Shown: positions 1,247-23,652 of the stretch, piece by piece
Position numbering within the stretch: the stretch's first letter is position 1
Layout of the letters: every line of letters starts with the position of its first letter
DNA from: an uncultured bacterium
GTDB taxonomy: Bacteria > JADJOY01
NCBI GenBank assembly: GCA_964447125.1
Contig: CAYUSL010000001.1
Coordinates: 1 to 55,250, forward strand
Direction of reading: 5' to 3'
DNA: 55,250 bases
Translations under genes and position numbers: made by a program
The notes under the pieces: model-generated
Databases searched by the model: none
What the model saw: the letters and a program-made list of their open reading frames with translations, nothing else
What the model was told of the DNA's origin: nothing

Positions 1247-2668
1247 TTGCGAATGAGCCACGTCATTCCACACGTTCCGACGGACAACGTCTACTTCGAC
1301 CCTGTCGATGGGCGTGCGCCGCTCATCCTCGGCACCAACGATTTTCATTCCATCACCGAAGCGGTTGCCGCGCCGATCGAGAATCGTGCGCCGTTCGGCT
1401 GGTGGGTTTGTCTGGCGGTGGCACTCGGGCTGCTGGCCGTGTTCGGCCTCTCCATTGCCTGGCTCTTCTGGGAGGGGGTGGGGATCTGGGGCGTGATGGT
1501 CCCGGTGGGTTGGGGCTTCGCGATCGTCAACTTCGTCTTCTGGGTCGGAATCGGCCACGCAGGAACCCTGATCTCGGCCGTTCTTTTCTTGTTTCGGCAG
1601 CATTGGCGGACGTCGATCAACCGCTCCGCGGAAGCCATGACGCTGTTCGCCGTCATGTGCGCGCTGGTGTTTCCGGGAATCCACGTCGGCCGCGTGTGGG
1701 TGGCGTACTGGATGTTTCCGCTGCCCAATCAGATGGGTATGTGGCCGAATTTCCGGAGCCCGCTGCTGTGGGACGTGTTCGCCGTGAGCGTCTACGGCAC
1801 CGTCTCGGCGCTCTTCTGGTACGTGGGCCTCGTCCCGGACTTGGCTACGTTTCGTGATCGCGCCACCACCAAGGTCCGCAAGATCGCGTACGGAGTGTTT
1901 GCGCTGGGCTGGCGCGGCTCGGCGCGCCATTGGCAGCACTACGAGTCTGCGTACCTGATCCTGGCCGCGCTCGCGACGCCGCTGGTGCTCTCTGTCCACT
2001 CGATCGTGTCGATGGACTTCGCCGTGTCGCAGCTCCCCGGCTGGCACACGACGATCTTCCCGCCCTACTTCGTGGCGGGTGCGATCTTCTCCGGCTTCGC
2101 GATGGTGACCACGCTGATGCTCATCACGCGCGTCGCCTTCAAGCTCGAGCACATCGTGACCATGCGTCACCTCGAGAACATGGCGAAGATCATGCTGCTG
2201 ACCGGCTCGCTGGTCGGCTACGCGTACGGCATGGAGTTTTTCATCGCCTGGTTCAGCGGCTCTCCGTACGAGCAGTTCATCTTCATCAATCGCGCCTTCG
2301 GCCCGTACAAGTGGGCCTACTGGATCATGATCTCCTGCAACGTGCTGTCGCCGCAGGTCTTCTGGTTCAAGAAGCTGCGCACCAGCGTACCGGTGCTGTT
2401 CGTCATGTCGATCACGATCAACATCGGGATGTGGTTCGAGCGTTTCGTGATCGTGGCGTCGTCGCTACACCGCGACTTCCTGCCGTCGAGCTGGGGCTAC
2501 TACACGCCCACGTTCTGGGACTTCGCGACGCTCGCGGGCAGTTTCGGGCTCTTCTTCACGATGTTCTGCCTGTTCGTACGCTTCCTGCCGATGGTCGCGA
2601 CAGCCGAGGTCAAGACCGTGATGCCGGCGGCGCACGTGCACCTCGGCGACGGCCGAGGAGGGCACTGA
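1247..2668 (+). CDS. actC: Alternative complex III subunit ActC (NrfD/PsrC-like polytopic quinol-interacting subunit), copy 1
   Basis: 473-aa ORF that aligns along its full length with the actC of the complete act operon at 31024. Shared strings include [44 protein letters not shown] and [11 protein letters not shown]. The ORF-track start at 1247 is TTG; an in-frame ATG at 1253 is an alternative. Confidence 0.85.
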
Positions 2669-2669
2669 G

Positions 2670-3233
2670 ATGGGGCTGCTCGCGCCATCGCTGCCCGAAG
2701 GCGAGCATTTCGGCGTGCTCGCCGAGCTGCGCTCGCCCCAGGCGCTGGTGGACGCATGCGAGCAAGTGCGTGATGCCGGCTACACACGCTGGGACGCGCA
2801 CACGCCGTTCCCGATCCACGGTCTCGATCGTGCCATGGGGCTGCGGCGCTCCCGGTTGCCGTTCGTGGTGCTCGCGCTCGGCCTGACCGGCGCGGCGGCC
2901 GCGCTCTTGATGCAATGGTGGATGAGCGTCGTCGACTACCCGATCGTGTACAGCGGCAAGCCCTATTTCAGTTGGCCGGCCTTCATCCCGATCGTCTTCG
3001 AGCTGGGGGTGCTTTTCGCTGCGTTCGCTGCGGTATTCGGCATGTTCGGCTTCAATCAGCTTCCCATGCTCTTCCATCCGCTCTTTCACGCCGACCGATT
3101 CGCGCGGGCGAGCGACGACGGCTTCTTCATCTCGATCGAGTCCTGGGACCCACGCTTCGATCCGCACCGCACGGCGGAGTTTCTGCGGGGGCTCGGGGCA
3201 ACGCACGTCGAGCTCGTGCCGCGCCGCGTGTGA
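2670..3233 (+). CDS. actD: ACIII subunit ActD (DUF3341-like membrane subunit), copy 1
   Basis: 187 aa, starting 1 nt after the actC1 stop. It is homologous to the ORF at 32435 (shared: ..A...GY...DA.(T/S)P(F/Y)PI..L..A.G, SWPAFIP..FE..VLFAAFAAVFGM). Position and size match actD. Confidence 0.8.
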   Translation: MGLLAPSLPEGEHFGVLAELRSPQALVDACEQVRDAGYTRWDAHTPFPIHGLDRAMGLRRSRLPFVVLALGLTGAAAALLMQWWMSVVDYPIVYSGKPYFSWPAFIPIVFELGVLFAAFAAVFGMFGFNQLPMLFHPLFHADRFARASDDGFFISIESWDPRFDPHRTAEFLRGLGATHVELVPRRV

Positions 3234-3276
3234 CGGTGCGTGGTCGAGTGGCGAGAAGCCGAGGAAACCGCAACTC

Positions 3277-4485
3277 GTGAGCACTGGAGTGCAATCCTTT
3301 CGGGCTGATCGCGTGTCGATCCCTGCCGGCAACGCCTGGGGGCGGTTGCCCGGCATCGGCCTCGGTGTGTTTCTGGTCGGTCTCGTGGCCTCGCTGGCGC
3401 TCGGACGCGGCGATCTGCGGCAGCTCCACTTCTCTTGGCTCGTCGCGTTCCTCTATTTCCTGAGCATCGCGTTGGGTGCGCTTTTCTTCGTGCTGATCCA
3501 CTACATCGCGAAGGCGGGGTGGAGCACGGCCGTGCGCCGCATCGCCGAGAACGCGATGGGCACGCTGCCGCTCTTCGCGGCACTCGTCGTGCCGGTCGTG
3601 ATCGGGATGTCCGAGCTCTTTCCATGGACGGACGCCGAGGTGGTCGCGAAGGACCCGGTACTGCTTTCCAAGCAGCCGTATCTGAACTCGCCGTTCTTCC
3701 TCGGGCGTCTCGCCTTTTATCTGGTCGTGTGGAGCGGGCTGGCGCTCTACTTCGGTCTCGCCTCGCGGCGCCAGGATTCGACCGGCGATCACGCGATCAC
3801 GCGCCGTCTGCAGATGGCCGCGGCGCCGGGGCTCTTCCTGTTCGCGGTCTCGATCACGTTCGCGGCGATCGACTGGATCATGTCGCTCGATCCGCACTGG
3901 TATTCGACGATCTTCGGCCTCTACTACTTCGCTGGTGCGGTGGTGGCGGCCCACGCGTTCATCGCCATCGTCACCGTCGGCTTGCACCGTAGCGGGCTGG
4001 TCACGGGGGTGTTCACCACCGACCACTTTCACGATCTGGGCAAGTTGCTGCACGGATTCACGGTGTTCTGGACCTACATCGGCTTTTCGCAATTCTTTCT
4101 CATTTGGTACGCGAACATCCCGGAAGAGACGATCTGGTTTCGTCACCGGCTGATGGGCTCGTGGAAGTCCGTCACCATCGCCCTCGCCTTCGGTCATTTC
4201 GTGATTCCATTCTTCGCGATCATGGCGCGCACCGTGAAGCGCAACCCCACGCTGCTTCGGCTGGGTGCGATCTGGATGCTGGCGATGCACTACCTGGATC
4301 TCTACTGGCTCGTCATGCCGAACCTGCACGAACACGGATTCGCACCGACCCTGCTCGATCTCGCCACCTGGCTCGCCGTCGGTGGTGCGTTCGTGGCGAC
4401 TTTCGGATTCAATCTGACCCGCGCGGCACTCGTTCCGATCCGAGATCCGCGTTTGCCCGAGTCTTTGAGCTACGAAAATGCGTGA
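3277..4485 (+). CDS. actF: ACIII subunit ActF (second NrfD-like membrane subunit), copy 1
   Basis: 402 aa with a GTG start. It is homologous to the actF at 33590 (shared: AA(I/V)DW(I/V)MSL(D/E)PHW(Y/F)STIFG, HFHDL(G/A)KLL, Q(F/Y)(F/L)(L/I)IW(Y/S)(A/G)N(I/L)PEE). It follows actD1 directly with a 43-nt gap and no actE between them. Confidence 0.8.
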   Translation: MSTGVQSFRADRVSIPAGNAWGRLPGIGLGVFLVGLVASLALGRGDLRQLHFSWLVAFLYFLSIALGALFFVLIHYIAKAGWSTAVRRIAENAMGTLPLFAALVVPVVIGMSELFPWTDAEVVAKDPVLLSKQPYLNSPFFLGRLAFYLVVWSGLALYFGLASRRQDSTGDHAITRRLQMAAAPGLFLFAVSITFAAIDWIMSLDPHWYSTIFGLYYFAGAVVAAHAFIAIVTVGLHRSGLVTGVFTTDHFHDLGKLLHGFTVFWTYIGFSQFFLIWYANIPEETIWFRHRLMGSWKSVTIALAFGHFVIPFFAIMARTVKRNPTLLRLGAIWMLAMHYLDLYWLVMPNLHEHGFAPTLLDLATWLAVGGAFVATFGFNLTRAALVPIRDPRLPESLSYENA

Positions 4486-4519
4486 ATCTCAACGCTCGAT
4501 CCGAGGAGGAACATCCATC

Positions 4520-5233
4520 ATGGTGCGTACGCGCGTTCTCGGCATGGTTGCAGCCGCTCAATCGTTGTGCGTCGGTGTCGCTCTCGCCGGCACCATCCAA
4601 GGATCGGTGAGCTACTCCGGAGCCGTCCCCAATCTCAAGCCGGTGTCGATGGACGCAGACCCGACCTGCGCAGCGAAGCATTCGAGCCCGGTGCCCAACG
4701 ACATTCTCGTGCTCGGTGACGCGAACGCGCTCGGCAACGTAGCCGTGAGTGTCGAGTCCGGCCTGCCCGCAGGGAAGACATACCCCGCACCCGCCGGTGC
4801 CGCGGAGATCGACCAGGACGGCTGCATGTACTCTCCCCACGTGCTGGGAATTCAGATGGGCCAAGCACTGAAGTTCAAGAATACCGATGCGATCCTTCAC
4901 AACGTTCACGCGTTGCCGCAGCTCAACAAGGAATTCAACCTGGCGATGCCGGGCAACGTGAAGGAGAAAGAAGCTAGTTTCCCCAAGGAAGAAGGCTTCT
5001 TCAAAGTGAAATGTGACGTGCATCCGTGGATGAACGCCTACGTGCGCGTTTACGCTCATCCTTATTTCAGCGTCACGGCCAAGGATGGCAAGTTCAAGAT
5101 CGAGAACGTGCCCGCCGGAACCTACGAGCTCAGCGCCTGGCACGAGAAGCTCGGCACCCAGAAGCAGTCGGTCACCATCGCCGAGGGCGAGACGAAGAAC
5201 CTCACGTTCACGTTCAGCGCGCCGGGTAAGTGA
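4520..5233 (+). CDS. Secreted type-1 copper (cupredoxin) protein with an amicyanin-like ligand loop, flanked by carboxypeptidase-regulatory-like beta-sandwich segments
   Basis: ATG at 4520 is preceded by GAGGAGGA (4503-4510). Signal-peptide-like N-terminus MVRTRVLGMVAAAQSLCVGVALAG. Copper ligand motifs are ILHNVHAL (compare amicyanin MPHNVHFV) and KCDVHPWM (compare amicyanin HCTPHPFM, C-x2-H-P-x-M). The C-terminal segment GKFKIENVPAGTYELSAWHEKLG is CarboxypepD_reg-like. Confidence 0.7.
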   Translation: MVRTRVLGMVAAAQSLCVGVALAGTIQGSVSYSGAVPNLKPVSMDADPTCAAKHSSPVPNDILVLGDANALGNVAVSVESGLPAGKTYPAPAGAAEIDQDGCMYSPHVLGIQMGQALKFKNTDAILHNVHALPQLNKEFNLAMPGNVKEKEASFPKEEGFFKVKCDVHPWMNAYVRVYAHPYFSVTAKDGKFKIENVPAGTYELSAWHEKLGTQKQSVTIAEGETKNLTFTFSAPGK

Positions 5234-5338
5234 CACGCGTCCAGGGCGGGGGCGACGCGTGACGCTCACGCGGCGCGCTGGGCTTGCTGGTCGTCGAAAC
5301 ATTCCTCGATCGCCACGTTTGAAGGGGAGAAGCGCCTG

Positions 5339-7111
5339 ATGAGCTCGTCGCATGGGCACCAAGGGAGTGCGGGCGGTGGTCACGGCGATGCCGAGCACCA
5401 CGAGCTCGGGTTCTGGCGGAAGTACGTCTTCTCCACGGACCACAAGGTGATCGGAATCCAGTACGGGCTCACGGCGCTGACGTTCCTGTTCTTCGGCTTC
5501 TGCTTGATGATGCTGATGCGGTGGCAGCTCGCCTTTCCGGGAAAGCCGCTGCCCTTCGGGCTCGGCAAGCTCTTCAGCGATGCGGTGATGCCGGGCGGGG
5601 CGATGGCGCCGGACTTCTACAACCAGCTCGGCGCCATGCACGGAACCATCATGGTGTTCCTCGGCGTGGTGCCGCTGGGTGTCGGCGCGTTCGGCAACTT
5701 CGTGCTGCCGCTGCAGATCGGCGCGCCGGACATGGCGTTCCCGCGCATCAACATGGCCAGCTACTGGGTCTATGCAATGGGCGGCATCGTCATGCTGGCG
5801 AGCTTCTTCCTCCCCGGTGGTGCGGCGCAGTCCGGCTGGACGTCGTATCCGCCGCTCTCCGACATTTCGCCGGGCCAGACGTCGTGGCTCGTGGGAATGA
5901 TCTTTCTCATCACCTCGTCCTTGCTCGGCTCGATCAACTTCATCGTCACCACGATTCAGCTCCGTGCCAAGGGCCTCACGTTCATGCGCTTGCCGTTCTT
6001 CGTGTGGGCGCAGCTCGTGACGGCCTTCCTATTGTTGCTCGCGTTTCCGCCGCTCGAGGCCGCCGGCATCCTCCAGCTCATGGACCGCGTGGCGGGAACG
6101 AGCTTCTTCCTGCCGAGCGGGCTGGTCGTGAGCGGCAAGATGCTGAACGTGAGTGGCGGTGGAAGCCCGCTGCTCTGGCAGCATCTCTTCTGGTTCTTGG
6201 CTCACCCCGAGGTTTACGTGTTGATCCTTCCGGCGATGGGGATCGTCGCGGAGGTCGTCGCGAACAACACGCGCAAGCCGCTCTGGGGCTATCGAGCGAT
6301 GGTGTATGCGGTGATCTTCCTCGGGTTCATGTCGTTCGTGGTGTGGGCGCATCACATGTTCATCACGGGCATGGGGAGCGTGATGGCGGCCTTCTTCCAG
6401 ACCACCACGATGATCATCTCGATCCCTTCGGTGATCGTGTTGACGGCCTTCTTCGTGTCGCTGTGGGGCGGCTCGATCCGCTTCACCACCCCGATGCTCT
6501 TCGCGCTCGCGTTCCTGCCGATGTTCGGAATCGGTGGGCTCACGGGATTGCCGCTGGGCTTGTCGTTTCCGGACATTCACCTGCACGACACGCTCTACGT
6601 CATCGGTCACTTTCACTACGTGGTGGCGCCGGGAACGATCTTCGCGTTGTTCGCAGGCGTCTACTACTGGTTCCCGAAGGCAACCGGCCGGCGCATGAGC
6701 GAGTCGCTCGGCAAGCTGCACTTCTGGCCGTCATTCGTGTTCATGAATGGCATCTTCTTCCCCATGTTCATCCAGGGGCTGGCCGGCATGTCCCGCCGGA
6801 TGGCGGACGGTGGCGAGACGTACGCGCACGTGGCCCACTACCTGTATCTGAACAAGGTGATGTCGTTTTCCGCCTGGGGGCTCGCGCTTTCCCAGATCCC
6901 ATTCATGATCAATCTCGCGAAGAGCATTCGCGGTGGCGAAAAGGTTTCCGACAACCCGTGGGATGCAACGACGCTCGAATGGGCGGCTCCATCGCCGCCG
7001 CCCCACGGAAACTTCTTGACCCTTCCCGAGGCGCATCGCGGCCCTTACGAGTACAGCGCGCCGGGACGCAAGACCGATTTCTTCCCGCAATTCGACCCGG
7101 CAAGGGGGTGA
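5339..7111 (+). CDS. ctaD: Heme-copper oxidase subunit I, A1-type (D-channel Glu present)
   Basis: 590 aa, with the RBS GAAGGGGAGAAG upstream. Motifs: WFLAHPEVYVLILPAMG (the HPEV glutamate marks the A1 type), VWAHHMF (CuB HH), GHFHYV (heme a/a3 His pair) and DMAFPR. Confidence 0.9.
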   Translation: MSSSHGHQGSAGGGHGDAEHHELGFWRKYVFSTDHKVIGIQYGLTALTFLFFGFCLMMLMRWQLAFPGKPLPFGLGKLFSDAVMPGGAMAPDFYNQLGAMHGTIMVFLGVVPLGVGAFGNFVLPLQIGAPDMAFPRINMASYWVYAMGGIVMLASFFLPGGAAQSGWTSYPPLSDISPGQTSWLVGMIFLITSSLLGSINFIVTTIQLRAKGLTFMRLPFFVWAQLVTAFLLLLAFPPLEAAGILQLMDRVAGTSFFLPSGLVVSGKMLNVSGGGSPLLWQHLFWFLAHPEVYVLILPAMGIVAEVVANNTRKPLWGYRAMVYAVIFLGFMSFVVWAHHMFITGMGSVMAAFFQTTTMIISIPSVIVLTAFFVSLWGGSIRFTTPMLFALAFLPMFGIGGLTGLPLGLSFPDIHLHDTLYVIGHFHYVVAPGTIFALFAGVYYWFPKATGRRMSESLGKLHFWPSFVFMNGIFFPMFIQGLAGMSRRMADGGETYAHVAHYLYLNKVMSFSAWGLALSQIPFMINLAKSIRGGEKVSDNPWDATTLEWAAPSPPPHGNFLTLPEAHRGPYEYSAPGRKTDFFPQFDPARG

Positions 7112-7117: not shown

Positions 7118-7708
7118 ATGCAGATCCCGTACACCGTCGAGCCCCGGCCGGATACCGGGCTGACGAATGGGAAGATCGGTATCTGGCTCTTCCTCGCGTC
7201 CGAGGTGATGCTCTTCGGCGGCCTGTTCGCGGCTTACATCATGCTGCGCGTGGGAGCCTCGGAATGGCCGGCCGGCAGGACGATCCTGAACATCAAGATG
7301 GCGTTCACCAACACGCTGGTGCTGATCAGCTCCAGCATCACGGTGGTGTTGGCCTGGGCGTCCCTGGTGCGTCGTGATCTCGGTGGTTTTCGACGCTGGA
7401 TGGGAATCACGATCCTCTGCGGTTGCATCTTCCTGGTCATCAAGTACTTCGAGTACACGACCAAGTTTCACCACGGTCTCTATCCACGCACGAATACCTT
7501 CCTCGCGATCTACTTCACGCTGACTGGCCTACACGGCTTGCACGTGATCGGGGGGATGGCGGTCAACTCGTACCTGCTGGGGCCGGGATCGAAGCTCTTC
7601 GCGACCGATCCCCAGTGGTTCACGAATCGGGTCGAGAACGCGGGGCTCTTCTGGCACCTGGTCGACTTGGTTTGGATCTTCCTGTTTCCAGTTCTCTACC
7701 TGCTCTGA
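7118..7708 (+). CDS. ctaE: Cytochrome c oxidase subunit III
   Basis: 196 aa, 6 nt after the subunit I stop. It shows FL.SEVMLFGGLFAAY, TG.HG.HV.GG and [14 protein letters not shown], all typical of subunit III. It is paralogous to the ORF at 38757. Confidence 0.85.
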   Translation: MQIPYTVEPRPDTGLTNGKIGIWLFLASEVMLFGGLFAAYIMLRVGASEWPAGRTILNIKMAFTNTLVLISSSITVVLAWASLVRRDLGGFRRWMGITILCGCIFLVIKYFEYTTKFHHGLYPRTNTFLAIYFTLTGLHGLHVIGGMAVNSYLLGPGSKLFATDPQWFTNRVENAGLFWHLVDLVWIFLFPVLYLL

Positions 7709-7724: not shown

Positions 7725-8105
7725 ATGAGCGCGAACCACGCCGTCGACCACCACGCAGCCGATCTCGACAAGCACGTTCGCGCGGCGCTGATCGTCTTCG
7801 GGACCTTGTTGGTGCTCACCATCGTGACCGTCGTCGTGGCGGAGCTCGATCTGCCGAAACGCGAAGCGATCGCGCTCGCGCTCGTGATCGCCACCGTGAA
7901 AGGCTCGTTGGTCGCCGCCTATTTCATGCACTTGCTATCCGAGCGCAAGGTCATCTTCGCCGTGCTGGGGCTGACGTTCGCGTTCTTCGCGGTCTTGCTC
8001 TTGACGCCCACAGCCACCTCCATCACGGACCACGTCGGCAAGCTGGTTCATCCGGACAAGGTCGCGCAACCGGCTGGCGAGCACGCCGCACACGCGGAAC
8101 ACTGA
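7725..8105 (+). CDS. Prokaryotic cytochrome c oxidase subunit IV family protein
   Basis: 126 aa with 3 predicted helices. The ATVKGSLVAAYFMHL motif (K-x-x-L-V-x-x-x-F-M-H) characterises the bacterial subunit IV (COX4_pro) family. It is paralogous to the ORF at 39423. Confidence 0.7.
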   Translation: MSANHAVDHHAADLDKHVRAALIVFGTLLVLTIVTVVVAELDLPKREAIALALVIATVKGSLVAAYFMHLLSERKVIFAVLGLTFAFFAVLLLTPTATSITDHVGKLVHPDKVAQPAGEHAAHAEH

Positions 8106-8113: not shown

Positions 8114-8317
8114 GTGAACCTGAAAGGCTTCCACGTGGTGTTCATCGTCGTCGCCACGCTCACCGTGCTCGGCTTCGGTGCCTGGGGCATCTCGGTGGGA
8201 CGCAGCACGAGCGACGCTGGAATGACCTTGCTCGGTGGAGTGTCCGCCGCGGCAGGTGTGGCCCTGTTGGCGTACGGTGGCTGGTTCCTGCGAAAGCTGC
8301 GAGGTGGGTTGTCGTGA
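8114..8317 (+). CDS. Small two-helix membrane protein, function unknown
   Basis: 67 aa, GTG start, two hydrophobic spans (VVFIVVATLTVLGFGAWGI and LLGGVSAAAGVALLAYGGWFL). It is packed between oxidase genes and overlaps the next ORF by 4 nt. Confidence 0.4.
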   Translation: MNLKGFHVVFIVVATLTVLGFGAWGISVGRSTSDAGMTLLGGVSAAAGVALLAYGGWFLRKLRGGLS

Positions 8318-8592
8318 ACCTCGTGCGCAGGCACCTCTCGATCGGGCTGGTCGCCGCTTTCCTGGTGGTGGCCGGTGCGACCGCGTCGTGGGCTTGCCCG
8401 GCCTGCTACGCCGAGGCCGAGGGGCCACTCATCGACGCCGCGCGGGTGGGCGCCTGGCTCCTGATCGGCGTGGTGGCGTCGATGTGGCTCGGGTTTCTCA
8501 CGTTCTTCGTCTATTTGGCGCGGCGAGCGCGGCGGTTCGCCGCTGAGCCGGTCGGGCAAGCGATGGTGGCGGCAGGCGAGGGCGCGGCCTAG
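8314..8592 (+). CDS. Small membrane protein with an exposed CPAC (CxxC) motif, function unknown
   Basis: 92 aa, GTG start. It has an N-terminal hydrophobic segment, then WACPACYAEAEG, then a second helix and a basic tail. It overlaps the preceding small ORF by 4 nt and lies 17 nt upstream of subunit II. Confidence 0.45.
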   Translation: MNLVRRHLSIGLVAAFLVVAGATASWACPACYAEAEGPLIDAARVGAWLLIGVVASMWLGFLTFFVYLARRARRFAAEPVGQAMVAAGEGAA

Positions 8593-8609: not shown

Positions 8610-9413
8610 ATGCACGAGTGGCTGTCTCTACCGGAGCTCGCGTCCGAGCATGGTGCGAAAGTCGATCAAGTCATCAGCTACGTCCACGTGCTGATGGCGA
8701 TTCTGTTCGTGGGATGGGGAGCGTTCTTCGTCTACACGCTCATCCGCTTTCGCGCCAGTGCCAATCCGAAGGCCGATTACGTCGGCGTGACGGGCCACAA
8801 GAACACGTATCTGGAAGTCGCGGTGGCGCTGGTCGAAGCCGTGTTGTTGATCGGGTTCTCGATACCCCTGTGGTCGGTGCGGGTGGACAAGTTCCCCGCG
8901 GAGAAAGAGGCCGTGGTGGTTCGCGCGGTAGCGGAGCAGTTCGCCTGGAACTTCCACTACCCTGGCGCCGACGGGGTGTTCGGCCACACCGATCCCCGTT
9001 TCGTCGATGCGCAGACCAACCCCGTCGGCCTCGACCCAGACGATCCGCACGGCAAGGACGACATCACCACGGTGAATCAGCTTCATCTGCCGGTGAACAA
9101 GCCGGCGATCGTTCGGCTCAGCAGCAAGGACGTCATCCACAGCTTCGCGCTCTGGGAGATGCGCGTGAAGCAGGATGCGGTTCCCGGGATCGAGTCTCCG
9201 CTCTGGTTCGAGCCGACGGTGACCACCGAGGAGATGCGCAAACGTACGGGCGATCCCAAGTTCACGTACGAGATCGGTTGCGCCCAGCTCTGCGGGCTCG
9301 GCCACTACCGCATGCGCGGCTTCGTCACGATCGACGACTCGGCGGGCTTCGATCACTGGCTCGCGGAGCAGGCACCAAAGCCTGGTGAAGGCGGCGACGA
9401 ATTCTGGGGTTGA
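8610..9413 (+). CDS. ctaC: Cytochrome c oxidase subunit II (CuA) without a fused cytochrome c domain
   Basis: 267 aa with a GGAGGA RBS. It has two N-terminal helices and the CuA ligands VIHSF ... CAQLCGLGHYRM (H, C-x3-C-x3-H-x2-M). No CxxCH motif is present. Confidence 0.85.
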   Translation: MHEWLSLPELASEHGAKVDQVISYVHVLMAILFVGWGAFFVYTLIRFRASANPKADYVGVTGHKNTYLEVAVALVEAVLLIGFSIPLWSVRVDKFPAEKEAVVVRAVAEQFAWNFHYPGADGVFGHTDPRFVDAQTNPVGLDPDDPHGKDDITTVNQLHLPVNKPAIVRLSSKDVIHSFALWEMRVKQDAVPGIESPLWFEPTVTTEEMRKRTGDPKFTYEIGCAQLCGLGHYRMRGFVTIDDSAGFDHWLAEQAPKPGEGGDEFWG

Positions 9414-18181: not shown

Positions 18182-20037
18182 GCGGCACCTCCGTGGGGGC
18201 CGTGCCCGGTGCCGCCCTCACGGTTTCCCCAATCGGGGGCGTGCGAGAGGCTCGCGAGCCAGAACACCATGCCGATCAGCGCAAAGAAGATCAGCACGGT
18301 GACCGATACGACCTTGGTCGCGAAACCGAGTGTCGGGGTGAAGGCGTCGACCGAGGTGTCGCGGATGACACCATAGACGTGCCAGTGCTGGCGCAGACCG
18401 GAGCGCACGTAGCCCATGAGCCCCATGAGCCACGTGAACGTGACCGCGATGAAGATCAGGATGTATTGAGAGAGCGGGGGCATGCGCCCCCAGCGCGTCT
18501 CACCCGTCGACTGCGCACCGCGATAGAGCGGCACGTCGATGACGGTGATGCTCACCATTGCCGCCAACACCGCGAGCACCTGGTACGCCGAGTAGCCGAT
18601 TCGCACCTTCGCTTCGACGAAATAGCCGTGAATGCCGAAGAAGATCACCCACGCGGCAGCGGCGAAGAAGAGCGCGAATTGGATGAGGTTTGCCGTGGTC
18701 GCCCACGGTTGCACCGAGCGCTTTCCGCTGCGCCTGTAGAGCAGGAAGCTCATGAACGTCGTCAGGATGAGGATGTTCACCGCAGTGTTCTTCGCCGACA
18801 TCACGCCGAGGAAGCCGAGCATCGGATGCGTCGATCCGCGCATCGCCTTCACTTCCGACGCCGTGGAGATGATCGAGCGGGGCGTGGCCCACACCGCGAA
18901 GCACAGCGCGATCGTGATGAGCAGGTACTTGATGAATTTCTGGAACGGCTGCGCGCCCTCGATTCGTCCCATGCCCAGCCACAGATAGGCGTTGGCTGCG
19001 AGGAACAAGTTGCCGATGAGCACCGCCTGGATGATGAAGAGCCATGAGAACGCTCCGCCCATCATCATGATGCCGAGTGCCTGGTTGAAGCCGTAGATCT
19101 CGCGCGCCAGGTAGTAACCGGCGAAGGGCAGAGGCAGGAACGCCAGGATGGCCACGAAGTTGCCGATGTAGCCCATCCAGTCGTAATGGGCGCGCTCTTC
19201 GTCGGTCTTGGCTCCCAGGTATTGGAACGCCGCATACGCCGCCGCGACCGAACCGCCGAACGCGACGTTGGCGATGAGGCGGTGAACGTTGATGGGCATC
19301 CAGGTGAAGTTCATCGCGGCTTCCATCACGTTCAACACCGCGCCGGAGTCGGAAACGCCGGCGGGCGACATCATGAACGAGACCCACGAGTTCGCGATGA
19401 ACATGATCGCGGTGCCCACCAGGTTGAGGCCCACGCCGAGGCCGATGTGCACCAGCGGATGAAACTTTCCCCAGCCGTAGTAGTAGCTGTAGAGGAAGAA
19501 CGCTTCCGCGAAGAAGAGCCCGACGTAAGGCGCGAAGGTCGGGCTGAAGACGCTCATCAAGTAAGTCGTGAACTTCGGATAGAGCGCGATCAGCAGGAAC
19601 GTCAGCATCGCGCCGAAGGTGGCGGTGATCGAGAACGACACCGACAAGAGCTTCGTGAACTCGTACGCGAGCCGGTCGTAACGTGTGTCCTTGGTGGCGT
19701 AGCCGATGATCTCGATGATGATCGCGAACATCGGCACCGCGAGCACGAACGCGGCGAAGAGCAGGTGAAGCTGCGCTGCCACCCACACGGCGACTCGGCT
19801 GCCGACCACCGGGAACTTGCGGTACTCGACTTCCTTGTAAGGCGTGGCCTTGGCGTCGGCCGCTTGCTTCTGGGCGAGGTCGTGCTCGGCTTGCTGGCGC
19901 GGCGTCGTCGCCTCGCTGAGGCCGCGCGTCGGTGGGTGGTAGGCGCGGTGCTCGAGCTGCATCCAGACGCCCACGAGCGAGCCGAGCCCGAGCACCACGG
20001 CGATCACCGCCATCGGCACGAGCACGCGAGGCTTCAC
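18178..20037 (-). CDS. Cytochrome bd superfamily subunit-I-like (CydA-like) protein, about 14 helices, no Q-loop-sized insert
   Basis: The start is trimmed to the GTG at 20037, which has GGAGAG 3 nt upstream and overlaps the actE1 stop as GTGA; the ATG at 20013 is an alternative. The segment VWVAAQLHLLFAAFVLAVPMFAIIIEIIGY...LLSVSFSITATFGAMLTF...YVGLFFAEAFFLYSYYYGWGKF...NVHRLIANVAFGGSVAAAYAAFQYL is colinear with CydA helices 1-5. It includes the helix-1 His and helix-5 His positions and a Glu aligned with E. coli E107. No hydrophilic stretch longer than about 30 aa occurs after helix 1. Confidence 0.75.
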   Translation of the reverse strand: MKPRVLVPMAVIAVVLGLGSLVGVWMQLEHRAYHPPTRGLSEATTPRQQAEHDLAQKQAADAKATPYKEVEYRKFPVVGSRVAVWVAAQLHLLFAAFVLAVPMFAIIIEIIGYATKDTRYDRLAYEFTKLLSVSFSITATFGAMLTFLLIALYPKFTTYLMSVFSPTFAPYVGLFFAEAFFLYSYYYGWGKFHPLVHIGLGVGLNLVGTAIMFIANSWVSFMMSPAGVSDSGAVLNVMEAAMNFTWMPINVHRLIANVAFGGSVAAAYAAFQYLGAKTDEERAHYDWMGYIGNFVAILAFLPLPFAGYYLAREIYGFNQALGIMMMGGAFSWLFIIQAVLIGNLFLAANAYLWLGMGRIEGAQPFQKFIKYLLITIALCFAVWATPRSIISTASEVKAMRGSTHPMLGFLGVMSAKNTAVNILILTTFMSFLLYRRSGKRSVQPWATTANLIQFALFFAAAAWVIFFGIHGYFVEAKVRIGYSAYQVLAVLAAMVSITVIDVPLYRGAQSTGETRWGRMPPLSQYILIFIAVTFTWLMGLMGYVRSGLRQHWHVYGVIRDTSVDAFTPTLGFATKVVSVTVLIFFALIGMVFWLASLSHAPDWGNREGGTGHGPHGGAA

Positions 20038-20633
20038 GGGCTCTCCTGGCGCTCGAGCTCGCGCACGAAGGCAACGATCGCCCAGCGGTCTTGGGTCGGC
20101 ACGGGCCAGCGGTAGGACGGCATCAGCCCCGAACCGTTCGTGATCACGTCGAAGAGCTGACCGTCCGGCATGTTCACGATCTTGTCGGAGTGCATGCTGG
20201 GCGTCGGCACGTTTCCGCGCTCGTAGAGAATGCCTTTGCCCGTGCCGCGGCTGTCGTGGCACGGCGCGCAGTAGATCGCGAAGCGATCGCGCCCGCGTGC
20301 AACGACCGTGGCGTCGTTGCCGATCGGGTTGGTCGCGACGAAGGCACCGCCGACGTCCTTACCCGTGTGGATCGTGGGATTCACGTGCAGCTCGCCACGG
20401 GCGATTGTCCCAGGCACGGGTGGGCGCATCGTTCCGCCGTCGTAAAAGAAGGCACTCTCGGACTGGGGGTCGTAGCGCGGCTGATAATCCATGCTGGGAT
20501 TCAGGTGGATCGGCTCCCGGCTCGAGGTGCAGCCGCGCGCGCAGCCGCTCGAGGCCAGCGCCAGCGACGCGACGCCGAGGCAGGTGGCGATCCACGCGCA
20601 CCGGCGTCGCAAGGTGAGTTGCTCTCGGCGCAT
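20034..20633 (-). CDS. actE: ACIII subunit ActE (lipoprotein monoheme cytochrome c), copy 1
   Basis: The start is trimmed to the ATG at 20633, 4 nt after the actB1 stop. It has the lipobox LASSGC and CAPCH. It aligns with the actE at 32961 (RF.IYC.PCHD..G.GKG... FDVI..G.G.MP.Y...P..DRWAI.A). Confidence 0.8.
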   Translation of the reverse strand: MRREQLTLRRRCAWIATCLGVASLALASSGCARGCTSSREPIHLNPSMDYQPRYDPQSESAFFYDGGTMRPPVPGTIARGELHVNPTIHTGKDVGGAFVATNPIGNDATVVARGRDRFAIYCAPCHDSRGTGKGILYERGNVPTPSMHSDKIVNMPDGQLFDVITNGSGLMPSYRWPVPTQDRWAIVAFVRELERQESP

Positions 20634-20637
20634 GCGC

Positions 20638-23600
20638 TCAGGCCTTGTCGAGATCCGGATTGGGATTCCGGATGCGCGCGAGGTACGAGGTGCGCGGCTT
20701 GGTGTTGAGCTCGGCGAGCAGGTCGTAGTTGCGCGGGCTGGTCTTCGCGACGGCGACGCGGCTCTTCGGGTCGCGGATGTCGCCGAACTCGATCGCGCGC
20801 GCAGGGCAAGCCTGCTGGCAGGCCGTGCGGACGTCACCGTCGGCGAGCGCCCGGTTCTCGAGCTTCGCCTGTTGCCGGCCGGCGCTGATTCGCTGCAGAC
20901 AGTACGTGCATTTTTCCATCACGCCGCGTGCCCGAACCGTGACGTTCGGATTCATCGCCATCTTCAGCGTTTCGGGCGTGTCTTTGGTGAAGTTGTAATA
21001 GTTGAAGCGCCGCACCTTGTACGGACAGTTGTTCGAGCAATAACGCGTACCGATGCAGCGGTTGTAGACCATGGCGTTGAGGCCGTGATCGTCGTGCACG
21101 GTCGCAGCCACCGGACACACCTGCTCGCAAGGCGCGTTCTCGCATTGCATGCAGGGAATGGGCTGGACGACCATCGCTTCCGGGTCGTCGGGATCGCCGC
21201 GGAAGTAGCGGTCGACGCGGATCCAATGCAGCTCGCGACCTCGGCGCACTTGGTCGCGGCCGACTGCAGGGATGTTGTTCTCCGCCTGGCACGCCGTGAC
21301 GCAGGCGTTGCAGCCGGTACAGACGTTCAAGTCGATGGTCATGCCCCATTGGGGGCCGTCCGCGTACGCGCGCTCCTGCCACAACGATTCCAGCGGCGGG
21401 TGCTCGACCATCTCCTTGGCGAACTCGGGCTCGTGCTGGAACTCCGCGAGGGTCGCCTCGCGAATCAACGTGGGGACACGTCGATCGCGTTCCTTCGCAC
21501 CGAGCTCGTCGATGATCCAATGATCCTGGGTGATGGCCAGCTCTGCGGTGCGGCTCAGTCGCTCGATTCGCGCTGAAGCCGCTCCCGCCAGGGTCTTCGT
21601 GGTTCGCAGGCGATACGCATCGGCCCCGACCATCGATCCGACCCGCCCGGCGGCCTCGCGGCCGTAACCGAGCGCGATCGTGACGGTGTGCTCGGCCTGA
21701 CCCGGGCTGATCACCACGGGGATCTCGATCTTCGCGTCGCCGACGGCGATGACCACCAGGTCTTCGTCGGTCACGCCCAATGCGCGTGCCGTTGCATAGC
21801 TCAGGAGTGCGGCGTTGCCCCAAGTGAGCTTGGTGGTCAGGTCGGGTAGCTCTTGCAGCCAAGAGATGTTGGCGAATCGGCCGTCGTAGACGGTGAACGA
21901 CGGCACGAACGTCAGCTCGATCGCTTCTGCCGTGGGCGGAGGAAGCGAGTCCGTGAGCGTTGCCGGCGCGGCGGCTCCTGCAGGAAGCGACTCGAGCTCG
22001 TTGGCAGTCGCGCTCGCTTCGAGCAGGCCGTCGTGCAGCACCCGTTCCCAGCGCGAATCGAGCTCGGAGTCGCCGAGGATGCCGCGCCAGGTTTCGCGCA
22101 CGAGGTCGTAGCCACTCGTGAGCTCCGCCTTTGCTGGGTCGGCGGCGAACGCGCCGAGCAGCTCGGCGACGGAACGGGCGCCGTGCAGCGGCAGCACGAG
22201 CGGCTGCACCACGCTGAGCGTGCCGTCGGCTGCGGCCGCGTCACCCCAGCTCTCCAGGAAATGAGCGAGCGGCAGGTGCCAGTGGGCGAGGGCTGACGTC
22301 TCGTCGACTTTCGCGCCAGCACGAATACACGTGGTCACTTTGGCGACGGCCTTCGTGAAGTCGAGGTCGCTCGGGGCGTCGTACGCGGGATTCCCGCCGA
22401 GGATCACGAGCGTGGAGACCTCACCCGACTGGATCGCCGAGACCAGCGCCGTCAGCTCGCCGAGCACCGAACGCGCGGCATGCCGGGGTGCCCTGTGGGT
22501 GAGCGTGGTTCCGAGATTGCCGAGGGCGGCGTTGATCGCGAGCACCCACGCATGGACGGCCGGTGGTAGATGGGCGCCAGCCACGACCACGCTGCGTCCG
22601 CGATTCGCCAGCAGATCTTTCGCCGCAGCAGCGATCCAACGTGCATCGACGTCTTCGCCTGAAACAGCCGGTGCCCCGAGACCAAGCTCGCGCGCCAGCA
22701 GTGCGACGACCGCAGGCATGCGACCGCGGCGCAATCGCAAGCGATGATCGGCGAGGCCGCCGGTGGCTGTGAAAGAGCTTTCGACGACGTAGAGCCGGTT
22801 GAGGTCCGGGGCGCTCGAGGTCTCGTGGTCCGTGGCGGGCAACACAGCGCGCCGGGCCGCGAAACCACCGGTGTTGCGCACCGTTTCGAGATCGGTGCCG
22901 AACGGATCGGCGTCGATGGCCACCACCACTCGGGCGCGTTGGTAATCGACGAGCGCTTCGAGCGCGCGCCCCGTGACGGCGGCGACTGCGCTCCGCTGGT
23001 GCTCGTCGCTGAGCGGCTCGTAGGTCGCCCAGCGCGCTCGCGGATAGACCTCGAGGAAGCGCGTCCGCAGGCGCGCGAGCGTCGGCGACGTGAATGGCTC
23101 GCCCAGCACTGCGAGGCCCGCGCCCTCGCTGGCACGCAGCGATGCCGCTTGGCTGCGCCAGAACCCGTCGAAATCCGTCCAGCTCGAGGGCGCACCGCTC
23201 TTGCGCACCGGACCGGCGCGATCGGGATCGTAGAGATCGTAGATTGCGGCCTGCATCCACGCGCTCGAAGCGCCGCGGGTCGCTGGATGCAGCTCGTTCC
23301 CTTCGATCTTGGTGGGCCGCCCCTCGTGGCTCTCGACGACCAGCCCGTAGGCACTCCTGCCGAACGGCATGGTGGTGGCGTAGCGGCGTGGCACGCCGGG
23401 CAGGATCTCTTCCGGCGGCTTGACGTACGGAACGATCTTTTCGAGTGGGCGGCGACACGCGGTCAGCCCCGCGATCGAGAGCGTCGCTCCCGTGAGCCCG
23501 AGCATGTGCCGTCGCGAGACGACGTCGGGCGGTGAATCAGCTCCCGCTGGAAACTCGGGCGAAGCCGCGCTCTCTGCGCCGCGTGAGGATTCGAGTGCCG

Positions 23601-23652
23601 CGACGCTGCGCCAGTAGGCGGCGCTTCGCGCGGGGCCTGGTGAGCTCGTCAT
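20638..23652 (-). CDS. actB: ACIII subunit ActB (molybdopterin-oxidoreductase-like domain plus Fe-S ferredoxin domain), copy 1
   Basis: About 1004 aa. The ATG at 23652 overlaps the actA1 stop as ATGA, the same arrangement as in copy 2. It has the Tat-like SRRHMLGLTGATLSIAGLTAC. Fe-S motifs are CTGCNACVTACQAEN, CMQCENAPCEQVCP, CIGTRYCSNNCPYKVRRFN, CTYCLQRI and ACQQACP. It is colinear with the ActB at 27970. Confidence 0.9.
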   Translation of the reverse strand: MTSSPGPARSAAYWRSVAALESSRGAESAASPEFPAGADSPPDVVSRRHMLGLTGATLSIAGLTACRRPLEKIVPYVKPPEEILPGVPRRYATTMPFGRSAYGLVVESHEGRPTKIEGNELHPATRGASSAWMQAAIYDLYDPDRAGPVRKSGAPSSWTDFDGFWRSQAASLRASEGAGLAVLGEPFTSPTLARLRTRFLEVYPRARWATYEPLSDEHQRSAVAAVTGRALEALVDYQRARVVVAIDADPFGTDLETVRNTGGFAARRAVLPATDHETSSAPDLNRLYVVESSFTATGGLADHRLRLRRGRMPAVVALLARELGLGAPAVSGEDVDARWIAAAAKDLLANRGRSVVVAGAHLPPAVHAWVLAINAALGNLGTTLTHRAPRHAARSVLGELTALVSAIQSGEVSTLVILGGNPAYDAPSDLDFTKAVAKVTTCIRAGAKVDETSALAHWHLPLAHFLESWGDAAAADGTLSVVQPLVLPLHGARSVAELLGAFAADPAKAELTSGYDLVRETWRGILGDSELDSRWERVLHDGLLEASATANELESLPAGAAAPATLTDSLPPPTAEAIELTFVPSFTVYDGRFANISWLQELPDLTTKLTWGNAALLSYATARALGVTDEDLVVIAVGDAKIEIPVVISPGQAEHTVTIALGYGREAAGRVGSMVGADAYRLRTTKTLAGAASARIERLSRTAELAITQDHWIIDELGAKERDRRVPTLIREATLAEFQHEPEFAKEMVEHPPLESLWQERAYADGPQWGMTIDLNVCTGCNACVTACQAENNIPAVGRDQVRRGRELHWIRVDRYFRGDPDDPEAMVVQPIPCMQCENAPCEQVCPVAATVHDDHGLNAMVYNRCIGTRYCSNNCPYKVRRFNYYNFTKDTPETLKMAMNPNVTVRARGVMEKCTYCLQRISAGRQQAKLENRALADGDVRTACQQACPARAIEFGDIRDPKSRVAVAKTSPRNYDLLAELNTKPRTSYLARIRNPNPDLDKA

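What the first reader, a model, noticed from the sequence alone, without database searches (positions are those of the whole stretch)
4520..5233. An amicyanin-like cupredoxin sits between actF1 and an aa3-type oxidase, in an operon with no c-type heme
**Observed.**
- The copper ligand set is H (ILHNVHAL) plus C-x2-H-P-x-M (KCDVHPWM), the short amicyanin-type loop.
- A signal peptide is present.
- The cupredoxin core is flanked by carboxypeptidase-regulatory-like beta-strand segments.
- The operon's subunit II (8610-9413) lacks the fused cytochrome c domain present in the paralogous caa3 subunit II (36111-37115).

**Inferred.**
- A blue-copper protein may replace cytochrome c as the carrier between the ACIII hemes and CuA in this branch.
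- ACIII-oxidase systems described so far, to my knowledge, use c-type hemes for this step.
Basis: partly seen in the sequence, partly recalled or inferred. Interest (0 to 1): 0.6.

Follow-up and report, generated by a model that had tools for sequence, protein, structure and literature searches.

The report
Oxidase-linked blue-copper electron carrier
This gene encodes a secreted blue-copper protein from a large, unstudied family that most likely hands electrons to a cytochrome oxidase lacking a built-in cytochrome c; copper carriers of this general kind are already known.

Summary
Window 4520-5233 encodes a 237-aa secreted protein with an amicyanin-type copper ligand set (H127, C165-x2-H168-x2-M171). 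Its cupredoxin domain is nested inside a CarboxypepD_reg beta-sandwich. It lies between actF1 and ctaD1. No product of this operon has a CxxCH motif. Subunit II (8610-9413) has a CuA site and no cytochrome c domain.

The carrier idea is well supported:
- The copper ligands are kept in 59 of 60 homologues.
- 52 of 80 homologous genes sit directly upstream of this oxidase type, across several phyla.
- All linked subunit II genes lack heme c.
- Natural fusions join the module to subunit II, subunit IV and multiheme cytochromes c.

- ACIII reducing a blue-copper protein (auracyanin) is already established.
- The branch is not heme-free. ActA1, ActB1 and ActE1 lie in the convergent neighbouring operon, and ActB and ActC copy numbers match in every genome checked. 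This ACIII is therefore split, not reduced.

The cupredoxin follows the oxidase, not ACIII, because genomes without ActB also carry the cupredoxin-oxidase pair. I found no paper on this family. I rate it a new variant of a known kind, of moderate interest.

The parts
1247..2668 (+). actC1: NrfD-type quinol-interacting membrane subunit of ACIII. It is the first gene of the operon; the upstream neighbour at 2-832(-) is an unrelated permease-like ORF.
   Evidence: PF03916 NrfD at 80 bits. 56% identical to ActC2 of the canonical ACIII at 31024-32445. No ActA or ActB gene lies upstream.
2670..3233 (+). actD1
   Evidence: PF11821 ActD at 228 bits.
3277..4485 (+). actF1: second NrfD-like membrane subunit.
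   Evidence: No Pfam hit. 35% identical to ActF2 at 33590-34789 and 49-63% identical to the gene at this position in related loci.
4520..5233 (+). The cupredoxin gene (237 aa). Signal peptide: residues 1-23 (nt 4520-4588). CarboxypepD_reg strands: residues 24-38, 70-81 and 182-235. Cys/His-bearing loop: 39-69, with C50. Nested cupredoxin: about 82-181, with C102 and type-1 copper ligands H127 (4898-4900), C165 (5012-5014), H168 (5021-5023) and M171 (5030-5032).
5339..7111 (+). ctaD1: A1-type heme-copper oxidase subunit I (LAHPEVY, HHMF).
   Evidence: PF00115 at 445 bits and TIGR02891 at 585 bits. Motifs confirmed.
7118..7708 (+). ctaE1: subunit III.
   Evidence: PF00510.
7725..8105 (+). ctaF1: subunit IV. 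In some relatives this subunit carries a fused copy of the cupredoxin module.
   Evidence: PF03626 at 50.8 bits. Fusions P0141, P0159 and P0233.
8114..8592 (+). Two small overlapping hydrophobic ORFs (67 and 92 aa; the second has a CPAC motif). Small ORFs occupy this position in related operons.
   Evidence: Small ORFs at the same position in L001, L003 and L088.
8610..9413 (+). ctaC1: subunit II with a CuA site (CAQLCGLGHYRM) and no cytochrome c domain. It is the presumed electron acceptor of the cupredoxin.
20034..24311 (-). actA1 (23649-24311), actB1 (20638-23661) and an actE1-like monoheme gene (20034-20837), in the convergent operon. They are the likely peripheral half of the same ACIII and the heme donors to the cupredoxin.
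   Evidence: Pfam multiheme, Fe-S/molybdopterin-like and cytochrome c hits. The genome has exactly two ActB and two ActC.

Best explanation
The gene encodes a Sec-exported periplasmic type-1 (blue) copper protein. Its cupredoxin domain is inserted into a transthyretin-like CarboxypepD_reg beta-sandwich. It is the dedicated electron donor to the CuA centre of the co-transcribed A1-type aa3 oxidase (CtaD1/E1/F1/C1). In that role it replaces the cytochrome c domain fused to subunit II in caa3 enzymes. Whether it diffuses freely or stays docked on the oxidase is open.

In this organism it is reduced by c-type hemes, most likely ActA1 and ActE1 of an alternative complex III. The membrane half of that complex (ActC1-D1-F1) is co-transcribed with the cupredoxin and the oxidase. 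The peripheral half (ActA1-B1-E1) is transcribed from the convergent neighbouring operon.

Shown here: gene anatomy, ligand set, predicted fold, synteny, fusions and copy-number matching. Inferred: copper binding, the direction and partners of electron transfer, and physical assembly of the split ACIII.
For: (1) Site and fold.
- The H/C/H/M ligands have amicyanin spacing.
- The AlphaFold2 model has mean pLDDT 91.9. Its top PDB fold matches are amicyanin, pseudoazurin, plastocyanin and the type-1 copper domain of NirK.

(2) Selection on the site.
- All four ligands are kept in 59 of 60 homologues at 41-75% identity.
- The one exception, L072 (record labelled Flavobacteriales), lost both Cys and Met. 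It has no oxidase within 10 kb.

(3) Synteny (91 homologous genes in 80 species-representative loci whose record titles name at least eight phyla).
- 52 of 80 genes with enough flank have a CtaD1-type subunit I directly downstream on the same strand. 60 of 80 have a subunit I within 3 kb.
- All 32 ActF-adjacent copies with both flanks held are also oxidase-adjacent.

(4) The need for a donor.
- All 58 CtaC1-type subunit II genes in these loci whose CuA region was read have a CuA motif (55 of them CxQxCGxxHxxM).
- None of the 61 has a CxxCH. The only heme-bearing subunit II found is a caa3 paralogue.

(5) Natural fusions.
- COX2 + module: P0246.
- COX4_pro + module: P0141, P0159 and P0233. P0141 lies in the subunit IV slot of an I-III-IV-small-small-II operon and was read on 21 contigs, with three places from different records shown.
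- Multiheme cytochrome c + module: P0185 and P0187, with Cytochrom_C Pfam hits. P0209, P0220 and P0225 carry homologous N-terminal sequence, with CxxCH in P0209 and P0220 but no Pfam cytochrome hit for either; P0225 was not scanned against Pfam.

(6) In about ten loci the gene lies next to a 700-1030-aa cytochrome c with seven or eight CxxCH motifs.

(7) Genome-level co-occurrence.
- In an even sample of 121 genomes drawn from the phylum of G057, all 33 with a CtaC1-type subunit II have the cupredoxin, against 26 of 88 without it (Fisher p = 8e-14).
- In the window's own six-genome phylum the two genes are present together in four genomes and absent together in two.

(8) Five relatives have a lipobox followed by an Ala/Pro-rich linker, which suggests membrane tethering. 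From my own knowledge, not checked here, some established copper carriers such as auracyanin are tethered in a similar way.

(9) Split ACIII.
- ActB and ActC counts match in the 18 genomes examined, at 1:1 or 2:2.
- In the complete chromosome G057 the only ActA-B-E set lies 715 kb from the only ActC-D-F set.

(10) No terminator-like or promoter-like site lies between actF1, the cupredoxin gene and ctaD1.
Against: - There is no biochemical evidence at all: copper binding, colour, redox potential and kinetics are untested.
- PF00127 and TIGR02657 both score below their cutoffs.
- Adjacency is not universal. In the 121-genome sample only 12 of 26 CtaC1-type subunit II genes have the cupredoxin within 6 kb. 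The family is also wider than the oxidase clade, since 26 of 88 genomes without the oxidase still have a hit.
- Three soluble or anchored cytochromes c encoded next door could reduce CuA directly, leaving the cupredoxin an accessory role.
- The single CoxII fusion (P0246) rests on one 2-kb metagenome contig.
- The function of the CarboxypepD_reg scaffold is unexplained.
Confidence: 0.66

Rival explanations
1. AcoP-like accessory. The protein binds the oxidase and stabilises or tunes it. It may be redox-active, but the obligatory donor to CuA is one of the c-type cytochromes encoded in the neighbouring operon.
For: - AcoP of Acidithiobacillus is a cupredoxin that binds tightly to the oxidase, interacts with cytochrome c, and maintains optimal oxidase activity at physiological pH (PMC4059628).
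- Fusions to subunit IV show that the module can be a fixed part of the enzyme.
- Three cytochromes c are encoded next door.
Against: - The subunit II fusion and the C-terminal fusions to multiheme cytochromes look like an in-line wire, not a stabiliser.
- Strict conservation of the full type-1 ligand set points to selection on redox function.
- All seven sampled genomes without any ActB still carry the gene, most beside the oxidase and one beside heme a/o synthase genes.
- No sequence similarity to AcoP was detected in the PDB search at E <= 10.
Confidence: 0.15
2. Self-contained quinol oxidase. ActC1-D1-F1, the cupredoxin and aa3 form a complex that needs no ActA, ActB or ActE. The cupredoxin docks on ActC through its beta-sandwich and takes electrons directly from the quinol site. 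ActA1-B1-E1 serve the bd-like protein of the other operon.
For: - ActC-D-F are co-transcribed with the cupredoxin and oxidase without any Fe-S or heme subunit, here and in 34 other loci.
- ActA-B-E are consistently co-transcribed with a bd-like membrane protein and cytochromes c instead, even 715 kb away.
- The scaffold domain has no assigned role.
Against: - ActB and ActC copy numbers match exactly in 18 genomes, and no genome was found with ActC1-D1-F1 but no ActB.
- In the published ACIII structures, electrons from the quinol site in ActC pass through the Fe-S clusters of ActB and then along the ActA/ActE heme wire (PMC7439408). That the quinol site abuts ActB is my own recollection and was not checked here.
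- The cupredoxin-oxidase pair exists widely without ActCDF, and elsewhere the gene sits beside, or is fused to, multiheme cytochromes. Hemes therefore look like its usual donors.
Confidence: 0.08
3. Copper chaperone or metallation factor for CuA or CuB, not an electron carrier.
For: - This operon has no recognisable Sco or PCuAC gene, whereas the caa3 operon has two extra ORFs before ctaC2.
- One relative lies next to a CusF/SCO1 fusion gene.
- The invariant extra Cys pair C50/C102 and the near-invariant H54 and H130 could form another site.
Against: - An H/C/H/M set in a cupredoxin loop is the signature of a redox type-1 site, not of the known CuA chaperones.
- H54, H107, H130 and H208 are each replaced in some homologues, and only the type-1 ligands and the Cys pair are invariant.
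- Fusions to cytochromes c make no sense for a chaperone.
- Related operons carry their own SCO1 gene in addition.
Confidence: 0.06

Closest known systems
Amicyanin (Paracoccus and Methylobacterium; TIGR02657; PDB 1aac, 1mda)
   Same: Cupredoxin fold. Ligand His in a PHNVH-like strand. Short C-x2-H-x2-M ligand loop with Pro after the His. Amicyanin is among the top sequence and fold matches.
   Different: - Scores 23 bits against the equivalog cutoff of 110.
- It is 237 aa and nested in a CarboxypepD_reg domain, not a 105-aa single domain.
- No methylamine dehydrogenase light chain was found in the genome (but with no positive control). MADH was not searched for in the 80 loci, where the partner genes found are oxidases and cytochromes c.
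Auracyanin with ACIII of Chloroflexus and Roseiflexus
   Same: A periplasmic blue-copper protein that accepts electrons from the ActA/ActE heme wire of ACIII (PMC7439408). This is the same position in the chain as proposed here.
   Different: - Auracyanin is azurin-like with a longer ligand loop (from my own knowledge, not tested here).
- It mainly returns electrons to a photosynthetic reaction centre.
- It has no nested scaffold domain.
- Its ACIII is described as a single six-subunit complex. The ACIII here is split over two operons and is found in non-phototrophs.
AcoP, the cytochrome c oxidase partner cupredoxin of Acidithiobacillus ferrooxidans
   Same: A cupredoxin that is physically associated with an aa3-type oxidase and interacts with cytochrome c (PMC4059628).
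   Different: - AcoP has a transmembrane anchor, a green copper site and an unusually long spacing between its second and fourth ligands.
- No detectable sequence similarity in the PDB search.
- Acidophile-specific, whereas this family is widespread.
Cytochrome c domain of caa3 subunit II (for example window 36111-37115)
   Same: The same functional slot: a one-electron carrier delivering to CuA, sometimes fused to an oxidase subunit. Here P0246 is fused to subunit II and P0141 to subunit IV.
   Different: The cofactor is copper, not heme c. In this window the carrier is a separate polypeptide.
Nmar_1307 purple cupredoxin of Nitrosopumilus maritimus (PDB 5fc9)
   Same: The best solved-structure sequence match (E = 6.6e-6), sharing the C-x2-HPW loop.
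   Different: In the alignment 5fc9 has Arg where this protein has the axial Met171. It is a 95-aa single domain from an archaeon.

Membership tests
Type-1 copper cupredoxins (plastocyanin/azurin superfamily, PF00127) | Greek-key cupredoxin beta-sandwich | tested here: met
   AlphaFold2 mean pLDDT 91.9. Foldseek probability 1.00 to amicyanin, pseudoazurin and plastocyanin, with TM-score on the target of 0.55-0.76.
Type-1 copper cupredoxins (plastocyanin/azurin superfamily, PF00127) | His...Cys-xn-His-xn-Met ligand set | tested here: met
   H127, C165, H168 and M171 align to the amicyanin ligands. They are kept in 59 of 60 homologues.
Type-1 copper cupredoxins (plastocyanin/azurin superfamily, PF00127) | Score above the Pfam gathering threshold | tested here: not met
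   19.0 bits against 21.2. One homologue, P0159, passes at 23.4 bits.
Type-1 copper cupredoxins (plastocyanin/azurin superfamily, PF00127) | Binds one copper with a band near 600 nm and small A-parallel in EPR | not testable with these tools
   Needs expressed protein.
Amicyanin (TIGR02657 equivalog) | Score above the curated cutoff | tested here: not met
   23.2 bits against 110.2.
Amicyanin (TIGR02657 equivalog) | Genomic and functional link to methylamine dehydrogenase | tested here: inconclusive
   PF02975 was not found in the genome, but the control genomes did not ring either. The loci were scanned only with window ACIII and oxidase proteins, so MADH was not sought there; the neighbours found are oxidase, ActCDF and cytochrome c genes.
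CarboxypepD_reg (PF13620) | Score above the gathering threshold; seven-strand transthyretin-like sandwich | tested here: met
   39.5 bits against 32.3. The full profile (positions 1-81 of 82) is recovered at 47.2 bits once the two inserts are spliced out.
Auracyanin | Azurin-type long ligand loop and membrane tether | tested here: not met
   The loop is C-x2-H-x2-M. The window protein has a Sec signal peptide without a lipobox. Some relatives do have a lipobox and linker. The auracyanin loop length comes from my own knowledge.
AcoP | Sequence relatedness and a transmembrane anchor | tested here: not met
   No AcoP chain appears among the PDB sequence hits at E <= 10. There is no transmembrane segment beyond the signal peptide.
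Alternative complex III (ActABCDEF), for the surrounding operon | ActC (NrfD), ActD (PF11821) and ActF present | tested here: met
Alternative complex III (ActABCDEF), for the surrounding operon | ActA, ActB and ActE encoded with them | tested here: not met
   Absent from the 1247-9413 operon. Present in the convergent operon at 20034-24311(-). Copy numbers match across genomes.
A1-type heme-copper O2 reductase with CuA (cytochrome c oxidase type) | HPEVY, HH and the CuA motif | tested here: met
   LAHPEVY and HHMF in CtaD1, and CAQLCGLGHYRM in CtaC1. Gln replaces the usual Glu in 55 of 58 subunit II genes of the clade.

The most novel reading that the evidence does not exclude
ActC1-D1-F1, the nested cupredoxin and the aa3 oxidase form a self-contained quinol oxidase with no heme c and no Fe-S cluster. 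The type-1 copper, held on ActC by the CarboxypepD_reg scaffold, would take electrons straight from the quinol site. ActA-B-E would then belong to a separate complex built on the bd-like protein.
Probability: 0.07. Interest if true: 0.85.

Novelty: new variant of a known kind. Interest (0 to 1): 0.55.

Why it matters
Most of the carrier records found here are uncultured Acidobacteriota, Omnitrophota, Planctomycetota, Fidelibacterota/Marinimicrobia and similar lineages. If the reading is right, they run an aerobic chain whose last soluble step is a copper protein, not a cytochrome c. The family has 1,405 clusters at 50% identity with E <= 1e-30.

Consequences:
- It would change how respiratory potential is read from metagenomes. 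These genes are currently labelled 'carboxypeptidase regulatory-like domain protein' or 'plastocyanin'.
- It would link oxygen respiration in these groups to copper supply.
- It would add a fold variant, a cupredoxin nested in a transthyretin-like domain, with natural fusions that mark its partners.
- The split ACIII, with its membrane half transcribed with aa3 and its peripheral half with a bd-like oxidase, raises a testable question about how one quinol-oxidising complex is shared between two terminal oxidases.

Tried and rejected
- Second metal site formed by C50, H54, C102, H107, H130 and W207-H208-E209. Only C50 and C102 are invariant; each His is replaced in some homologues. A disulfide is more likely. 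I could not measure distances because model coordinates are not exposed.
- Naive splice of the N-terminal strand onto the C-terminal part. This did not improve the PF13620 match. Adding the second strand (residues 70-81) did.
- Hairpin after the cupredoxin stop codon (5234-5261) as an attenuator or stabiliser. The fold of 5228-5345 is no better than shuffled sequence (z = 0.29).
- Internal terminators or promoters. None were found between the genes, and the hits inside genes are at the background rate.
- Methylamine pathway. PF02975 is absent from the genome, but the search had no positive control, so this is weak.
- 'Orphan' ActCDF. Rejected in favour of a split ACIII because ActB and ActC counts match.
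- Literature. Searches pairing ACIII with cupredoxin or plastocyanin, pairing ActC/ActD/ActF with heme-copper, and for 'carboxypeptidase regulatory-like' with cupredoxin terms found no description of this family. Subscription journals are not covered.
Full report
**What is there.**

Operon 1 (+ strand) is:
- actC1, 1247-2668 (NrfD)
- actD1, 2670-3233 (PF11821)
- actF1, 3277-4485
- the cupredoxin gene, 4520-5233
- ctaD1, 5339-7111
- ctaE1, 7118-7708
- ctaF1, 7725-8105
- two small hydrophobic ORFs, 8114-8592
- ctaC1, 8610-9413

The gene upstream, at 2-832 on the minus strand, is an unrelated permease-like ORF, so the operon starts with actC1. None of the ten products has a CxxCH motif. No terminator-like or promoter-like site separates actF1, the cupredoxin gene and ctaD1. 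A canonical actABCDEF-caa3 cluster lies at about 27.3-39.8 kb of the same window.

**The protein.**

The start at 4520 has a GAGGAGG 8 nt upstream. It also matches the 237-aa gene call in a 75%-identical relative. Residues 1-23 look like a Sec signal peptide: MVRTR, a hydrophobic core, then ALA|G. There is no lipobox.

- *Copper site.* H127 lies in ILHNVHAL, and C165-D-V-H168-P-W-M171 forms the ligand loop. HMMER aligns these to the amicyanin ligands H53, C92, H95 and M98.
- *Closest solved sequence.* This is the Nitrosopumilus cupredoxin 5fc9 (E = 6.6e-6). In the alignment it has Arg where this protein has the axial Met.
- *Predicted fold.* An AlphaFold2 model built on 60 homologues is confident, with mean pLDDT 91.9 and pTM 0.86. 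Its PDB fold matches are amicyanin, pseudoazurin, plastocyanin and the type-1 copper domain of NirK.
- *Scaffold.* PF13620 (CarboxypepD_reg) matches the C-terminal 60 residues above its threshold. When residues 24-38, 70-81 and 182-235 are spliced together, the match extends to the whole profile (positions 1-81 of 82) and rises from 40.6 to 47.2 bits. The beta-sandwich is therefore interrupted twice: by a loop at 39-69 that carries C50, and by the cupredoxin at about 82-181 that carries C102.
- *Other conserved residues.* C50 and C102 are invariant and probably form a disulfide. The other conserved His residues are each replaced somewhere in the family.
- *Family thresholds.* The protein fails the curated cutoffs of PF00127 (19.0 against 21.2) and of the amicyanin equivalog (23.2 against 110.2). 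It is amicyanin-like in site and fold, but it is not an amicyanin.

**The family and its neighbours.**

The family is large. More than 7,000 of the 8,000 scored candidates match at E <= 0.001 in the 90%-clustered collection, named 'plastocyanin' by JGI and 'carboxypeptidase regulatory-like domain-containing protein' by NCBI. At 50% clustering there are 1,405 representatives at E <= 1e-30.

A scan of species-representative genomes gave at least 594 loci. The 80 best come almost entirely from metagenome-assembled genomes. Their record titles name Acidobacteriota (Vicinamibacteria, Thermoanaerobaculia), Omnitrophota, Planctomycetales, Marinimicrobia/Fidelibacterota, Verrucomicrobiia, Binatia, Latescibacterota, Hydrogenedentota and others.

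I scanned these loci with the window's own proteins:
- 52 of 80 genes with enough flank have a CtaD1-type subunit I directly downstream on the same strand.
- 60 of 80 have a subunit I within 3 kb.
- 67 of 80 loci contain the oxidase somewhere.
- ActF1 is directly upstream in 34 of 87.
- Every ActF-adjacent copy with both flanks held is also oxidase-adjacent (32 of 32).
- 18 oxidase-adjacent copies have no ActF upstream.

All four type-1 ligands are kept in 59 of 60 homologues. The exception, in a record labelled Flavobacteriales, lost both Cys and Met and has no oxidase within 10 kb. All 58 CtaC1-type subunit II genes whose CuA region was read have a CuA motif, almost always CAQLCG, and none of the 61 has a CxxCH. 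Where no oxidase is adjacent, the neighbours sampled are mostly redox or copper genes: a 940-1003-aa multiheme cytochrome c, heme a and heme o synthases, a diheme cytochrome c, and a CusF/SCO1 protein.

A maximum-likelihood tree shows three things:
- Copies that lie next to large multiheme cytochromes make up most of a basal clade.
- The bare cupredoxin-oxidase arrangement dominates in records labelled Omnitrophota and Planctomycetales.
- The ActCDF-preceded arrangement is confined to a clade centred on Acidobacteriota, which contains the window gene.

**Reverse test.**

In an even sample of 121 genomes from the phylum of G057, all 33 with a CtaC1-type subunit II also have the cupredoxin. Only 26 of the 88 without it do (Fisher p = 8e-14). 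However, only 12 of 26 close CtaC1 genes have the cupredoxin within 6 kb. The window's own phylum holds only six species genomes. The two genes are present together in four of these and absent together in two.

**Natural fusions.**

Among the 50%-identity representatives, the module occurs fused to other proteins:
- *Subunit II.* P0246 has an N-terminal COX2 domain with a CuA motif, an acidic linker, and then the module. It rests on a single 2-kb contig.
- *Subunit IV.* P0141, P0159 and P0233 have an N-terminal COX4_pro domain. P0141 was read on 21 contigs, and the three places shown come from different records. It occupies the subunit IV slot of an operon ordered: multiheme cytochrome c, two ORFs, a free lipoprotein cupredoxin, CoxI, CoxIII, CoxIV::cupredoxin, two small ORFs, CoxII, SCO1.
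- *Multiheme cytochrome c.* P0185 and P0187 carry the module at the C-terminus of large proteins with Cytochrom_C Pfam hits. P0209, P0220 and P0225 are fragments with homologous N-terminal sequence; P0209 and P0220 have CxxCH, neither gave a Pfam cytochrome hit, and P0225 was not scanned.

These fusions name the partners. Hemes c lie on one side and the CuA-bearing oxidase on the other. Five relatives also have a lipobox followed by an Ala/Pro-rich linker, which suggests a membrane tether.

**The ACIII context.**

The statement 'no c-type heme' is correct for operon 1 but misleading for the branch. The convergent operon at 9459-24311 (minus strand) encodes:
- ActA1, 23649-24311
- ActB1, 20638-23661
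- an ActE1-like monoheme protein, 20034-20837
- a bd-like protein
- three further cytochromes c

The genome is about 90% complete, and it has exactly two ActB and two ActC genes, all on this contig. In the 18 carrier genomes examined, ActB and ActC counts match at 1:1 or 2:2.

In the complete chromosome G057, the sole ActA-ActB-ActE set lies in the same bd-like/cytochrome c operon type, 715 kb from the sole ActC-D-F-cupredoxin-oxidase cluster. Six further complete chromosomes show the same counts and the same separation of ActB from ActC. The simplest reading is one ACIII whose membrane and peripheral halves are transcribed separately. A rival reading, in which the two halves are independent complexes, is not excluded.

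All seven sampled cupredoxin-carrying genomes from loci labelled Omnitrophota, Planctomycetales or Neomarinimicrobiota have no ActB at all. The cupredoxin therefore belongs to the oxidase, not to ACIII.

**Comparison with what is known.**

ACIII reducing a blue-copper protein is established. Chloroflexus and Roseiflexus ACIII is a menaquinol:auracyanin oxidoreductase, with electrons leaving through the ActA/ActE heme wire (PMC7439408). A cupredoxin that partners an aa3 oxidase is also known: AcoP binds both the oxidase and cytochrome c (PMC4059628). From my own knowledge, plastocyanin reduces the cyanobacterial aa3 oxidase, and sulfocyanin and halocyanin serve archaeal oxidases.

What appears undescribed in the library searched is:
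- this family itself
- its nested architecture
- its fusions
- its wide distribution in uncultured phyla
- its co-transcription with only the ActCDF half of ACIII

**Relation to earlier notes of this scan.**

Earlier AI notes reached the same reading for relatives in three other genomes, and described the split ACIII in this genome. I treated them as leads and re-derived each point. The fusion evidence, the reverse co-occurrence test, the ActB/ActC counting in complete chromosomes and the spliced-domain test did not appear in the summaries I was shown.

**Verdict.**

- Observation: confirmed.
- Most likely function: a periplasmic type-1 copper donor to CuA, fed by c-type hemes (confidence about 0.66).
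- Novelty: new variant of a known kind.
- Interest: 0.55.

Noticed in passing
window 9459-24311 (-) and L091, L092, L093: The operon ActA-ActB-ActE, bd-like protein, three cytochromes c, USP/PCP_red protein and the radical-SAM cassette is conserved as a unit. It lies convergent to the cupredoxin operon here and in G043, and 715 kb away from it in the complete chromosome G057.
   Followed up: partly
window 8114-8592 (+): Two overlapping small hydrophobic ORFs (67 and 92 aa; the second has WACPACYAEAEG) lie between subunit IV and subunit II. Small ORFs occupy the same position in L001, L003 and L088.
   Followed up: partly
window 8610-9413 and 55 of 58 related subunit II genes: This oxidase clade has CAQLCG in the CuA loop. 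Gln replaces the Glu that, from my own knowledge, binds the Mg/Mn site at the subunit I/II interface.
   Followed up: no
G000 contigs C486:2667-3125(-) and C25:21675-22061(-): Two shorter, distant paralogues (about 30% identity). They have type-1 motifs (THNAF...CSIHKSM and FHNVF...CNIHPRM) and a CarboxypepD_reg-like tail, but lack the N-terminal Cys/His loop. Their context was not examined.
   Followed up: no
L058, L060, L063, L064, L065, L067, L073, L074, L075, L080, L088: A cytochrome c of about 700-1065 aa lies next to the cupredoxin gene in loci from several phyla. It has seven or eight CxxCH motifs in the ten loci counted and FixO-like and cytochrome c domains where Pfam was run. In P0185 and P0187 a related cytochrome is fused to the module. 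It is a candidate donor module in genomes that lack ACIII.
   Followed up: partly
L048, L050, L054-L056, L061, L062, L069, L077: In records labelled Candidatus Multivorans/Multivoraceae, Thermoanaerobaculia or Holophagales, a second cupredoxin paralogue lies divergently upstream of actC. The two copies therefore bracket ActCDF. They form separate, well-supported clades.
   Followed up: partly
whole genome G000: The genome belongs to a phylum with only six species-level genomes in the collection, in one family and two genera. It is a 7.3-Mb assembly in 992 contigs.
   Followed up: no
P0124, P0133, P0135, P0158, P0164, P0180: Proteins of 540-600 aa with two or three matched stretches of the module. 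P0124, the only one read, carries two full modules behind an anti-sigma-like N-terminus.
   Followed up: no
L088:9691-10914: Subunit II of the operon carrying the CoxIV::cupredoxin fusion is 407 aa. It has an insertion of about 100 residues inside the CuA domain, ahead of the CAQLCGIGHYLM motif.
   Followed up: no
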